DNA of 64,000 nucleotides, from assembly GCF_003334815.1 (NCBI RefSeq), contig NZ_QOWO01000006.1; one strand, given 5' to 3'. A model generated the notes under the pieces. The model saw nothing but the letters and a program-made list of their open reading frames with translations, ran no database searches and was not told where the DNA came from. Shown in pieces: positions 20,263-43,196 of the stretch; position 1 is the stretch's first letter; each line of letters begins with the position of its first letter. The position numbers were made by a program, and so were the translations under genes. This DNA is from Escherichia coli. GTDB taxonomy: Bacteria; Pseudomonadota; Gammaproteobacteria; Enterobacterales; Enterobacteriaceae.

Positions 20263-21381
20263 ATGCATAACCAGGCTCCAATTCAACGTAGAAAATCAAC
20301 ACGTATTTACGTTGGGAATGTGCCGATTGGCGATGGTGCTCCCATCGCCGTACAGTCCATGACCAATACGCGTACGACAGACGTCGAAGCAACGGTCAAT
20401 CAAATCAAGGCGCTGGAACGCGTTGGCGCTGATATCGTCCGTGTATCCGTACCGACGATGGACGCGGCAGAAGCGTTCAAACTCATCAAACAGCAGGTTA
20501 ACGTGCCGCTGGTGGCTGACATCCACTTCGACTATCGCATTGCGCTGAAAGTAGCGGAATACGGCGTCGATTGTCTGCGTATTAACCCTGGCAATATCGG
20601 TAATGAAGAGCGTATTCGCATGGTGGTTGACTGTGCGCGCGATAAAAACATTCCGATCCGTATTGGCGTTAACGCCGGATCGCTGGAAAAAGATCTGCAA
20701 GAAAAGTATGGCGAACCGACGCCGCAGGCGTTGCTGGAATCTGCCATGCGTCATGTTGATCATCTCGATCGCCTGAACTTCGATCAGTTCAAAGTCAGCG
20801 TGAAAGCGTCTGACGTCTTCCTCGCTGTTGAGTCTTATCGTTTGCTGGCAAAACAGATCGATCAGCCGTTGCATCTGGGGATCACCGAAGCCGGTGGTGC
20901 GCGCAGCGGGGCAGTAAAATCCGCCATTGGTTTAGGTCTGCTGCTGTCTGAAGGCATCGGCGACACGCTGCGCGTATCGCTGGCGGCCGATCCGGTCGAA
21001 GAGATCAAAGTCGGTTTCGATATTTTGAAATCGCTGCGTATCCGTTCGCGAGGGATCAACTTCATCGCCTGCCCGACCTGTTCGCGTCAGGAATTTGATG
21101 TTATCGGTACGGTTAACGCGCTGGAGCAACGCCTGGAAGATATCATCACTCCGATGGACGTTTCGATTATCGGCTGCGTGGTGAATGGCCCAGGTGAGGC
21201 GCTGGTTTCTACACTCGGCGTCACCGGCGGCAACAAGAAAAGCGGCCTCTATGAAGATGGCGTGCGCAAAGACCGTCTGGACAACAACGATATGATCGAC
21301 CAGCTGGAAGCACGCATTCGTGCGAAAGCCAGTCAGCTGGACGAAGCGCGTCGAATTGACGTTCAGCAGGTTGAAAAATAA
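20263..21381 (+). CDS. ispG: IspG (GcpE), HMBPP synthase of the MEP pathway, 372 aa
   Basis: Track ORF; cysteine motifs CPTCSRQ and [11 protein letters not shown]. Confidence 0.95.
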
Positions 21382-21491
21382 TAACGTGATGGGAAGCGCC
21401 TCGCTTCCCGTGTATGATTGAACCCGCATGGCTCCCGAAACATTGAGGGAAGCGTTGAGGGTTCATTTTTATATTCAGAAAGAGAATAAAC

Positions 21492-39833: not shown

Positions 39834-40888
<1,055 letters not shown>

Positions 40889-40935
40889 TTACTTGCGGTA
40901 GAAAAATAAAATTCGGCGCAATTCTAACAGGGAAA

Positions 40936-40947
40936 GCAAACGTTTGC
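40936..40947. promoter_or_regulatory. PurR operator upstream of purMN
   Basis: Perfect palindrome GCAAACGTTTGC (flanks AAGCAAACGTTTGCGA), about 65 bp upstream of the purM start. Confidence 0.75.
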
Positions 40948-41124
40948 GAGACTGCTTTACACAACCTTTTTGCACGTCTTTTCCCCAGGCGCGCGGCGAA
41001 AGAAGACTTGTGCCAGGGTAAAGGTTAGTTTTCGGATGGAATAATCTTCTTTCATAACCATCTGAATATAAAATAACTTTATCTCAAACCGTTATCATTT
41101 TGACTAAAGTCAACGAAAAGAATA

Positions 41125-41167
41125 TTGCCGCCTTGAAGAAAGGAGGTATAATCCGTCGATTTTTTTT
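41125..41167 (+). promoter_or_regulatory. upp promoter with initially transcribed U-tract
   Basis: TTGCCG-N16-TATAAT (41147-41152), start near G/A 41158-41159, followed by T8 run 41160-41167. Confidence 0.65.
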
Positions 41168-41194
41168 GTGGCTGCCCCTCAAAGGAGAAAGAGT

Positions 41195-41821
41195 ATGAAG
41201 ATCGTGGAAGTCAAACACCCACTCGTCAAACACAAGCTGGGACTGATGCGTGAGCAAGATATCAGCACCAAGCGCTTTCGCGAACTCGCTTCCGAAGTGG
41301 GTAGCCTGCTGACTTACGAAGCGACCGCCGACCTCGAAACGGAAAAAGTAACTATCGAAGGCTGGAACGGCCCGGTAGAAATCGACCAGATCAAAGGTAA
41401 GAAAATTACCGTTGTGCCAATTCTGCGTGCGGGTCTTGGTATGATGGACGGTGTGCTGGAAAACGTTCCGAGCGCGCGCATCAGCGTTGTCGGTATGTAC
41501 CGTAATGAAGAAACGCTGGAGCCGGTACCGTACTTCCAGAAACTGGTTTCTAACATCGATGAGCGTATGGCGCTGATCGTTGACCCAATGCTGGCAACCG
41601 GTGGTTCCGTTATCGCGACCATCGACCTGCTGAAAAAAGCGGGCTGCAGCAGCATCAAAGTTCTGGTGCTGGTAGCTGCGCCAGAAGGTATCGCTGCGCT
41701 GGAAAAAGCGCACCCGGACGTCGAACTGTATACCGCATCGATTGATCAGGGACTGAACGAGCACGGATACATTATTCCGGGCCTCGGCGATGCCGGTGAC
41801 AAAATCTTTGGTACGAAATAA
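41195..41821 (+). CDS. upp: Uracil phosphoribosyltransferase, 208 aa
   Basis: Track ORF 41168..41821; ATG 41195 with AGGAGA SD ([15 protein letters not shown]). Confidence 0.95.
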
Positions 41822-41837
41822 AGAATAAAAATAATTA

Positions 41838-41866
41838 AAGCCGACTTTAAGAGTCGGCTTTTTTTT
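41838..41866 (+). terminator. Intrinsic terminator/attenuator between upp and uraA
   Basis: AAAGCCGAC-TTTAAGAG-TCGGCTTTTTTTTT. Confidence 0.8.
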
Positions 41867-41906
41867 GAGTAAAGCGCCTATAACACATAATACAGAGGAT
41901 AATACT

Positions 41907-43196
41907 ATGACGCGCCGTGCTATCGGGGTGAGTGAAAGACCGCCACTTTTACAGACAATCCCGCTTAGTTTGCAACATTTGTTCGCCATGTTTGGTGCAA
42001 CCGTCCTGGTGCCCGTCTTATTTCATATTAACCCGGCGACTGTACTGTTATTTAACGGTATTGGAACGCTGCTGTATCTCTTCATCTGTAAAGGGAAAAT
42101 TCCGGCTTATCTTGGTTCCAGCTTTGCCTTTATTTCACCGGTATTGTTACTGTTGCCGTTAGGGTATGAAGTCGCGCTGGGCGGCTTTATTATGTGCGGC
42201 GTGCTGTTCTGCCTGGTTTCTTTTATCGTGAAGAAAGCGGGGACCGGCTGGCTGGACGTGCTGTTTCCACCTGCGGCAATGGGCGCAATCGTTGCCGTCA
42301 TCGGTCTGGAGCTGGCGGGCGTAGCTGCCGGTATGGCGGGTTTACTCCCGGCTGAAGGGCAAACGCCAGACTCCAAAACCATCATCATCTCTATTACCAC
42401 CCTGGCGGTCACGGTTTTAGGTTCCGTGCTGTTTCGTGGTTTCCTGGCAATTATCCCGATTTTAATTGGCGTGCTGGTGGGGTACGCGCTCTCTTTCGCA
42501 ATGGGAATTGTCGATACCACGCCGATTATTAATGCTCACTGGTTTGCGCTGCCAACCCTCTATACGCCGCGCTTCGAGTGGTTTGCCATTCTGACTATTC
42601 TGCCAGCGGCGTTAGTGGTTATTGCCGAACACGTAGGGCACCTGGTAGTAACGGCTAATATCGTCAAAAAAGATCTGCTGCGCGATCCAGGTCTGCACCG
42701 TTCGATGTTTGCTAATGGCTTGTCGACCGTGATTTCCGGCTTCTTTGGCTCTACGCCAAATACTACTTACGGAGAAAACATTGGCGTGATGGCGATCACC
42801 CGTGTTTACAGTACCTGGGTTATCGGCGGGGCGGCGATTTTCGCTATCCTGCTTTCCTGCGTCGGTAAACTGGCTGCCGCTATCCAGATGATCCCATTGC
42901 CGGTGATGGGCGGCGTTTCGCTGCTGCTTTATGGTGTCATCGGTGCTTCCGGTATTCGTGTTTTGATCGAATCGAAAGTGGATTACAACAAAGCACAGAA
43001 CCTGATCCTGACTTCCGTGATTTTGATCATCGGCGTCAGTGGCGCGAAGGTAAACATCGGTGCGGCGGAGTTAAAAGGTATGGCGCTGGCGACCATCGTC
43101 GGTATCGGCTTAAGTTTGATCTTCAAACTGATCAGTGTGCTGCGCCCTGAAGAAGTGGTGCTGGACGCAGAAGACGCGGATATAACAGACAAATAA
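41907..43196 (+). CDS. uraA: Uracil:H+ symporter (NCS2 family), 429 aa
   Basis: Track ORF 41865..43196; ATG 41907 with GAGGA SD ([16 protein letters not shown]); multi-TM. Confidence 0.95.

What the first reader, a model, noticed from the sequence alone, without database searches (positions are those of the whole stretch)
41125..41167. upp promoter with an 8-U initially transcribed tract
A TATAAT -10 (41147-41152) is followed by GA then TTTTTTTT (41160-41167) before the SD. Such U-tracts at the 5' end of pyrimidine-salvage transcripts support UTP-dependent reiterative transcription and start-site switching (described for upp and codBA in E. coli).
Basis: partly seen in the sequence, partly recalled or inferred. 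Interest (0 to 1): 0.25.

Follow-up and report, generated by a model that had tools for sequence, protein, structure and literature searches.

The report
Known E. coli upp UTP-sensing promoter
This is the already well-studied promoter of the E. coli uracil-salvage operon upp-uraA, where RNA polymerase senses UTP by choosing between two adjacent start bases in front of a run of eight T's, so the finding is correct but ordinary.

Summary
The window is E. coli K-12 MG1655 DNA (100% identity), reverse complement of NC_000913.3:2598067-2662066.

The string GATTTTTTTTG is exactly the published upp-uraA initially transcribed region. There, UTP-sensitive start-site switching coupled to non-productive reiterative (poly-U) transcription was shown experimentally (Tu & Turnbough 1997; Cheng et al. 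2001).

A genome-wide transcription start site (TSS) map independently places the productive upp TSS on the G at 41158. The TATAAT-N5-(G)A-T7-9 layout occurs once in each of 80 Enterobacterales species loci, always upstream of upp. It is the only such arrangement in the 64-kb window (0.043 expected). No RNA family or stable leader fold is present.

Verdict: observation confirmed, interpretation supported, already known, low interest.

Minor extras:
- T7 (8%) and T9 (0.35%) alleles occur among 5,425 E. coli genomes.
- The E. albertii representative has T instead of the productive-start G.
- A conserved FNR-like palindrome sits at -51.5, not the -61.5 stated in one paper.

The parts
41100..41113 (.). 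FNR-like palindrome TTGACTAAAGTCAA upstream of the upp promoter, centred at -51.5 relative to G 41158
   Evidence: Sequence. Named as an FNR site in PMC3266220. FNR ChIP-seq peak assigned to upp in PMC3688515. At most 1 mismatch to TTGA-N6-TCAA at the same offset in 59 of 80 species loci, against 0.5% background.
41125..41130 (+). -35 hexamer TTGCCG
   Evidence: Promoter scan: 16-nt spacer, 10 of 12 matches. The first T and the G of the hexamer are nearly invariant across 79 distinct Enterobacterales promoters.
41131..41146 (+). 16-nt purine-rich spacer (CCTTGAAGAAAGGAGG), unusually conserved in its 3' half across species (consensus AAAAAAAGCGG)
   Evidence: Positional information-content profile.
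41147..41152 (+). -10 hexamer TATAAT (perfect consensus)
   Evidence: Identical in 80 of 80 species loci.
41153..41157 (+). 5-nt G+C-rich discriminator CCGTC
   Evidence: Length fixed at 5 nt in 80 of 80 loci: CCGGC, CCCGC, CTCGC or CCGTC.
41158..41158 (+). G6: productive start site, favoured at low UTP
   Evidence: TSS at NC_000913.2:2618931, minus strand, 194 reads, 5' UTR 37 nt (PMC3415461 supplement). Coordinate conversion. G in 79 of 80 loci. The UTP dependence comes from the literature (Tu & Turnbough 1997).
41159..41159 (+). A7: alternative start site favoured at high UTP; its transcripts enter reiterative U addition and are released
   Evidence: A in 80 of 80 loci. The role comes from Tu & Turnbough 1997 as summarised in PMC12709180 and from my recollection of the abstract. 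Not testable here.
41160..41167 (+). T8 tract (U8 in RNA): slippage-prone homopolymer of the initially transcribed region
   Evidence: Matches the published 5'-GATTTTTTTTG. T7-T9 in 80 of 80 species loci. In E. coli, 4738 genomes have T8 with this exact 76-nt context, 439 have T7 and 19 have T9.
41168..41194 (+). Rest of the 37-nt leader, with SD AAGGAG at 41182-41187; no significant RNA structure
   Evidence: Fold z-score +0.96. No Rfam match.
41195..41821 (+). upp CDS (uracil phosphoribosyltransferase, 208 aa)
   Evidence: RefSeq annotation b2498, WP_001295473.1. ORF listed.
41837..41866 (+). Terminator-like hairpin plus a second T8 run between upp and uraA
   Evidence: Terminator scan: 11-pair stem, 5 G-C pairs. 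Only sub-threshold terminator-type Rfam matches.
41907..43196 (+). uraA CDS (uracil:H+ symporter), second gene of the operon served by this promoter
   Evidence: RefSeq annotation b2497. 'upp-uraA' operon naming in PMC7039003. Only 2-3-read TSSs are assigned to uraA in PMC3415461.

Best explanation
This is the sigma-70 promoter of the E. coli K-12 upp-uraA operon (uracil phosphoribosyltransferase and uracil permease), together with its UTP-sensing initially transcribed region GATTTTTTTTG.

RNA polymerase can start at G (41158, 6th base after the -10) or at A (41159, 7th base).
- At low UTP it starts mainly at G. Those transcripts are elongated normally into upp-uraA mRNA with a 37-nt unstructured leader.
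- At high UTP it starts mainly at A. The short AUUU... transcript then slips backwards on the eight-A template run, and U is added repeatedly. The resulting AUUUU(n) RNAs are released without reaching upp.

Expression of uracil salvage therefore falls when UTP is plentiful, and no repressor protein is needed.

Shown here:
- the sequence anatomy;
- identity to the published element;
- a mapped productive TSS at G;
- absence of RNA structure;
- very strong conservation of the layout.

Taken from the literature and not testable here: the UTP dependence, the poly-U products, and the requirement for a long T tract.
For: - Source: 100% identity to E. coli K-12 MG1655, and the region is present in 5426 of 5426 complete E. 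coli genomes.
- Anatomy: read. It is the best promoter match in the region, TTGCCG-16-TATAAT.
- Published element: PMC7039003 quotes 'upp-uraA (5'-GATTTTTTTTG)' as a reiterative-transcription promoter that makes long non-productive poly-U RNAs.
[quoted passage not shown] The titles of Tu & Turnbough 1997 and Cheng, Dylla & Turnbough 2001 appear.
- Independent TSS: NC_000913.2:2618931, 194 reads, 37-nt UTR, which is window 41158.
- Conservation across species: TATAAT-N5-(G)A-T7-9 occurs exactly once per locus, always upstream of upp, in 80 of 80 Enterobacterales species. GA is present in 79 of 80. Information content peaks from the -35 through A7.
- Conservation within E. coli: 4738 of 5425 genomes are identical over 41125-41200.
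- Same layout at E. coli codBA: TAGAAT-GCGGC-GGA-T6-G.
- No competing RNA element: no Rfam hit and no stable leader fold.
Against: Nothing in the sequence argues against it.

Limits:
- The primary papers (PMC179593, PMC94869) and Turnbough's reviews are not held. The G6/A7 details therefore rest on secondary citations and my memory of the abstracts.
- The TSS data set lists only the G start, which is expected if A-initiated RNAs are aborted. It therefore does not itself show switching.
- The E. albertii representative has T at the G position. The G is thus not absolutely required for a viable promoter.
Confidence: 0.97

Rival explanations
1. The U8 tract mainly acts after transcription, as an unstructured U-rich 5' leader that recruits ribosomal protein S1 or Hfq to enhance or modulate upp translation. 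On this reading the reiterative transcription is incidental. It could also be an additional role alongside the main mechanism.
For: The leader is unstructured (z +0.96). The U tract lies only 14 nt upstream of the SD. It is conserved at 34-44 nt from the ATG in 77 of 80 loci. U-rich leaders enhancing translation through S1 is general knowledge, not tested here.
Against: The invariant feature is the register with the -10 hexamer: exactly 5 nt, then G-A, then the T run, in 80 of 80 loci. Distance to the SD or ATG is not fixed and stretches to 91 and 172 nt in three loci. This points to an initiation-level role. The literature assigns regulation to initiation.
Confidence: 0.05
2. The promoter works like pyrBI or carAB P1: a single start site, with UTP-dependent stuttering directly competing with normal elongation and no start-site switching.
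For: The same homopolymeric T run follows the start. Only one TSS (G) appears in the genome-wide map.
Against: PMC12709180 explicitly contrasts pyrBI (direct) with codBA and upp (indirect, via TSS switching). The G-A dinucleotide before the T run is conserved in 79 of 80 species and recurs at codBA. This fits two alternative purine starts. A-initiated aborted RNAs would not be captured by TSS mapping.
Confidence: 0.02
3. The T8 run is not part of a regulatory promoter. It is instead the tail of an intrinsic terminator, an A-tract DNA-bending or UP-like element for the divergent purMN promoter, or a leader RNA attenuator or riboswitch such as the PyrR-type elements of Gram-positive bacteria.
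For: T runs of 8 also occur at terminators, for example 41859-41866 right after upp.
Against: - No G+C-rich hairpin precedes 41160.
- The upstream gene purM is divergent, so there is nothing to terminate.
- The purM TSS is 244 bp away, at window 40914.
- There is no Rfam match even at E<=1 in 41100-41200.
- The leader fold is no better than shuffles.
Confidence: 0.01

Closest known systems
E. coli upp-uraA promoter (Tu & Turnbough 1997, J Bacteriol 179:6665; Cheng, Dylla & Turnbough 2001, J Bacteriol 183:221)
   Same: It is this element. The DNA is 100% identical to MG1655, the initially transcribed region is the same GATTTTTTTTG, and the TSS is at the G.
   Different: Nothing.
E. coli codBA promoter (Qi & Turnbough 1995, J Mol Biol 254:552)
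   Same: UTP-sensitive start-site switching plus non-productive reiterative transcription. The layout is the same: a -10 hexamer, a 5-nt G+C-rich discriminator, G then A, a T run, then G (TAGAAT-GCGGC-GGA-TTTTTT-G). It is also a pyrimidine-salvage operon.
   Different: codBA has T6 rather than T8. Its A is the 8th base after the -10, with two G's before it. Its -10 is the non-consensus TAGAAT.
E. coli pyrBI and carAB P1 promoters (UTP-sensitive reiterative transcription without start switching)
   Same: UTP-dependent U addition on a T run in the initially transcribed region yields released poly-U RNAs.
   Different: The T run is only T3 (AATTTG, GTTTGC), and there is a single start. High UTP triggers stuttering directly rather than through the choice of start site. 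pyrBI also has a downstream attenuator.
Bacillus subtilis pyrG (CTP-sensitive productive reiterative transcription)
   Same: It senses nucleotide level by slippage on a homopolymer at the transcript's 5' end.
   Different: It adds G on a GGG run when CTP is low. The slipped transcripts are productive and act as an antiterminator. At upp the slipped transcripts are dead ends.

Membership tests
UTP-sensitive start-site-switching / reiterative-transcription promoters (upp, codBA class) | Sigma-70 promoter with a recognisable -10 and -35 directly upstream of the slippage tract | tested here: met
   TTGCCG-16 nt-TATAAT, 10 of 12 matches. TATAAT is invariant in 80 of 80 species loci.
UTP-sensitive start-site-switching / reiterative-transcription promoters (upp, codBA class) | Two adjacent candidate purine starts (G then A) 6-8 nt after the -10, followed immediately by a long T run (at least 6) on the non-template strand | tested here: met
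   G at position 6 (41158), A at position 7 (41159), T8 at 41160-41167. The string is identical to the published GATTTTTTTTG.
UTP-sensitive start-site-switching / reiterative-transcription promoters (upp, codBA class) | Productive mRNA 5' end maps to the G upstream of the A-T run | tested here: met
   Published genome-wide TSS table: NC_000913.2:2618931, 194 reads, 37-nt UTR, upstream sequence ending ...TATAATCCGTCG. Converted to window 41158.
UTP-sensitive start-site-switching / reiterative-transcription promoters (upp, codBA class) | Controls a pyrimidine salvage or biosynthesis operon | tested here: met
   The downstream genes are upp and uraA.
UTP-sensitive start-site-switching / reiterative-transcription promoters (upp, codBA class) | The start-site ratio shifts with UTP, and A-initiated transcripts become AUUUU(n) and are released | not testable with these tools
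   Reported by Tu & Turnbough 1997, as summarised in PMC12709180 and PMC7039003. The primary paper is not held.
UTP-sensitive start-site-switching / reiterative-transcription promoters (upp, codBA class) | A long T tract is required for regulation | not testable with these tools
   The title of Cheng et al. 2001 states it, but the paper is not held. Consistent comparative evidence: the tract is never shorter than 7 or longer than 9 in 80 species. Among E. coli genomes, T8, T7 and T9 alleles were found; other lengths were not searched for.
Intrinsic (rho-independent) terminator | G+C-rich hairpin immediately upstream of the T run, downstream of a co-directional gene | tested here: not met
   No terminator call at 41160. 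The upstream gene purM is divergent.
Structured RNA leader (riboswitch, PyrR-binding attenuator, or any Rfam family) | Match to a covariance model, or a leader fold more stable than shuffled controls | tested here: not met
   No Rfam hit at the gathering threshold or at E<=1 over the promoter and leader. MFE -7.5 kcal/mol against a shuffle mean of -9.7, z +0.96.

The most novel reading that the evidence does not exclude
The element itself is textbook. The most novel reading left open is that its set-point and inputs vary or are richer than described.

1. T-tract length is confined to 7-9 across Enterobacterales but is polymorphic within E. coli (T8 about 87%, T7 8%, T9 0.35%). The E. albertii representative lacks the productive-start G. 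Lineages may therefore tune UTP sensitivity of uracil salvage through natural alleles.

2. A conserved FNR-like palindrome at the atypical position -51.5, and a strongly conserved purine-rich spacer, suggest a second input (anaerobic or nitrite) that acts on the same initiation complex in a non-canonical way.
Probability: 0.15. Interest if true: 0.3.

Novelty: already known. Interest (0 to 1): 0.08.

Why it matters
The upp promoter is one of the classic cases of 'repression without repressors', in which RNA polymerase itself reads the UTP pool through start-site choice and transcript slippage. Recognising it in raw sequence shows the first-stage reader can spot such elements, but it adds no new biology.

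The comparative results here are modest additions:
- The -10/N5/GA/T7-9 register is invariant across five families of Enterobacterales.
- Natural T7 and T9 alleles occur in E. coli.
- The E. albertii representative carries a variant at the G start position.
- The FNR-like site sits at -51.5.

These could guide allele-swap experiments on how tract length sets the regulatory range.

Tried and rejected
- **Primary sources.** I tried to read Tu & Turnbough 1997 (PMC179593), Cheng et al. 2001 (PMC94869), Turnbough & Switzer 2008 (PMC2415746), Han & Turnbough 2014 (PMC4135645) and Turnbough 2011 (PMC3078970). None is held. Mechanistic detail therefore rests on secondary citations.
- **Other TSS sources.** PMC12709180 has no supplements held. 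The Cappable-seq paper's supplements contain none of the expected coordinates, possibly because the files are truncated. TSS-EMOTE (PMC5094136) does not mention upp.
- **Structured RNA leader.** Rejected: there are no Rfam hits at the promoter or leader and no significant fold.
- **Terminator reading of the T8 run.** Rejected (the upstream gene is divergent).
- **Coordinate errors.** My first related-loci call used a wrong frame (ATG taken as 41196) and failed; it was corrected to 41195. My first codBA fetch used wrong coordinates and was corrected.
- **Not attempted.** I did not extend the comparison beyond Enterobacterales (Vibrionaceae, Pasteurellaceae and others). The large protein searches would not change the verdict.

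Full report
**1. What the sequence shows**

Window 41125-41168 reads TTGCCG CCTTGAAGAAAGGAGG TATAAT CCGTC G A TTTTTTTT G.
- The only imprecision is that five bases (CCGTC) separate the -10 from 'GA'. G (41158) is therefore the 6th and A (41159) the 7th base after the hexamer.
- The consensus scan returns TTGCCG-16 nt-TATAAT, 10 of 12 matches, as the best promoter in 40700-42000.
- Downstream lie the SD AAGGAG (41182-41187) and the upp ATG at 41195. The CDS runs 41195-41821. It is followed by a terminator-like hairpin with a second T8 (41837-41866) and then uraA (41907-43196).
- On the other side, purM and purN are divergent.

**2. Is it more than chance?**

It is the only TATAAT-N3-9-T5+ on either strand of the 64-kb window. 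First-order Markov simulations give 0.043 occurrences of TATAAT-N3-9-T6+ per window.

**3. Source**

The region is 100% identical to E. coli K-12 MG1655 and is present in all 5,426 complete E. coli genomes. Using the RefSeq annotation, window position x corresponds to NC_000913.3 position 2662067 - x. The window is the reverse complement of MG1655 2598067-2662066.

**4. Literature**

- PMC7039003 lists 'upp-uraA (5'-GATTTTTTTTG)' with pyrBI and codBA as E. coli promoters that make long reiterative RNAs which never switch back to normal elongation. That string is window 41158-41168.
[quoted passage not shown] It calls this non-productive.
- The primary reports are Tu & Turnbough 1997 (J Bacteriol 179:6665) and Cheng, Dylla & Turnbough 2001 (J Bacteriol 183:221). 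Their titles state the mechanism and the need for a long T-A tract. Neither paper is held.
- The G6/A7 nomenclature and the statement that A7 transcripts become AUUUU(n) come from my recollection of those abstracts. They are consistent with the secondary sources.

**5. Independent TSS evidence**

The genome-wide TSS table of Kim et al. 2012 (PMC3415461, supplement file 2) lists one strong upp TSS. It is at NC_000913.2:2618931 on the minus strand, with 194 reads and a 37-nt 5' UTR. Its upstream sequence ends ...GGAGGTATAATCCGTCG. This is G6, window 41158.

No A7 start is listed, which is expected if A-initiated RNAs are aborted poly-U species. Only 2-3-read TSSs are assigned to uraA, which fits co-transcription with upp.

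**6. Comparative evidence**

A scan of one genome per species with the Upp protein returned 80 loci at 92-100% protein identity. They come from Enterobacteriaceae, Erwiniaceae, Yersiniaceae, Pectobacteriaceae and Hafniaceae.

Every locus contains exactly one TATAAT-N5-N-A-T(7-9), and it is always upstream of upp: 80 matches in 479 kb counting both strands.
- The -10 is TATAAT in 80 of 80.
- The discriminator is always 5 nt (CCGGC 35, CCCGC 27, CTCGC 12, CCGTC 6).
- Positions 6-7 are GA in 79 loci and TA in one (E. albertii).
- The T run is T8 in 46, T7 in 25 and T9 in 9.
- The base after the run is G in 65, A in 13 and C in 2.
- The leader from position 6 to the ATG is 34-44 nt in 77 loci, but 91 nt in two and 172 nt in one. 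The conserved register is therefore with the -10, not with the ribosome-binding site.

Information content anchored on G6 is maximal from the -35 (its first T and its G) through A7. It is low further upstream and in the leader.

Within E. coli, counts over 41125-41200 are:
- 4,738 of 5,425 genomes identical to the window;
- 439 with the same sequence but T7, including the type strain ATCC 11775, with T7 also seen in APEC O1;
- 19 with T9, several of them O157:H7;
- the remaining 229 not examined individually; a spacer C-to-G SNP at 41131 is one variant seen in sampled genomes.

**7. Comparison with codBA**

The MG1655 codBA promoter reads TAGAAT-GCGGC-G-G-A-TTTTTT-G. It has the same plan, with T6 and the A at position 8.

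**8. Rivals**

- A structured leader is excluded. There is no Rfam family at gathering or at E<=1 over the promoter and leader. The only weak hits fall on the upp-uraA terminator hairpin. The leader fold (-7.5 kcal/mol) is no better than shuffles (z +0.96).
- A terminator tail is excluded. There is no preceding hairpin and no co-directional upstream gene.
- A post-transcriptional role of the U tract (S1 or Hfq) cannot be excluded as an extra. It does not explain the fixed register with the -10.

**9. Verdict**

This is the original, experimentally characterised upp promoter, so it is already known and of low interest as a discovery.

**10. Side observations**

- An FNR-like palindrome (41100-41113) lies at -51.5 from G6. 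PMC3266220 gives -61.5. An FNR ChIP-seq peak is assigned to upp in PMC3688515. The site is conserved at the same offset, with at most 1 mismatch, in 59 of 80 species against 0.5% background. It is absent from Erwiniaceae.
- The 3' half of the promoter spacer is conserved about as strongly as the hexamers.
- These two points, together with the T7/T9 alleles and the E. albertii G-to-T variant, are the only things not obviously covered by the literature I could read.

Noticed in passing
window 41100-41113: An FNR-like palindrome TTGACTAAAGTCAA is centred at -51.5 relative to the mapped upp TSS (G 41158). PMC3266220 states -61.5. Position -51.5 is not a canonical class I or II activator position (from memory of spacing studies). 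The site keeps the same offset, with at most 1 mismatch, in 59 of 80 Enterobacterales loci (background 0.5%). It is missing in Pantoea, Erwinia and Mixta.
   Followed up: partly
window 41160-41167; E. coli genomes: T-tract length is polymorphic in complete E. coli genomes. T8 in this exact 76-nt context occurs in 4738, T7 in 439 (including type strain ATCC 11775, with T7 also seen in APEC O1) and T9 in 19 (several O157:H7). Some may be homopolymer assembly errors, but 439 suggests a lineage allele.
   Followed up: partly
L006:1150-1200 (Escherichia albertii NBRC 107761): The productive-start G (position 6) is T: TATAATCCGTCTATTTTTTTTG. It is the only one of 80 species loci without GA. Under the published model this should remove the low-UTP productive start.
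   Followed up: no
window 41131-41146; loci L006-L085, positions -22 to -12 from G6: The 3' half of the -35/-10 spacer is purine-rich and conserved almost as strongly as the hexamers (consensus AAAAAAAGCGG; E. coli AAGAAAGGAGG). This is unusual for a spacer. Its function is unknown.
   Followed up: no
window 41837-41866: A strong terminator-like hairpin (11-pair stem) with a second T8 run lies between upp and uraA, although the two genes are treated as one operon. Only 2-3-read TSSs are assigned to uraA in PMC3415461. It is probably a partial terminator that sets the upp:uraA ratio.
   Followed up: partly
window 40934-40949 and 40914 (- strand): A PurR operator (AAGCAAACGTTTGCGA on the + strand) overlaps the divergent purMN promoter. 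The purM TSS in PMC3415461 (NC_000913.2:2619175) converts to window 40914. This is known biology (PMC3266220).
   Followed up: partly
L048:1100-1203, L059:1100-1203, L074:1020-1203: Three loci have long leaders after the conserved promoter and T run. The loci labelled Serratia marcescens and Ca. Symbiopectobacterium have 91 nt, with a 15-codon ORF (MMGCHVRPRRTHPAS) starting right after the T run. Brenneria roseae has 172 nt containing several hairpin-plus-T-run units. These may be inserted elements or extra attenuators.
   Followed up: no
L048 vs L059: The upp upstream regions labelled Serratia marcescens and Candidatus Symbiopectobacterium endolongispinus are nearly identical. This suggests mislabelling or contamination in one of the assemblies.
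   Followed up: no
window 425-534 (+), 7909-8212 (-), 8344-8552 (-), 21381-21472 (+): Rfam gathering-level hits elsewhere in the window: the iscRS stability element, ryfA, IS128 and sroE. All are known E. coli RNAs.
   Followed up: no
E. coli genome collection: One of the 5,426 complete E. coli genomes has no match to the 96-nt or 76-nt promoter query, although it matches the wider 1-kb region. One additional copy of the region lies on a plasmid record.
   Followed up: no
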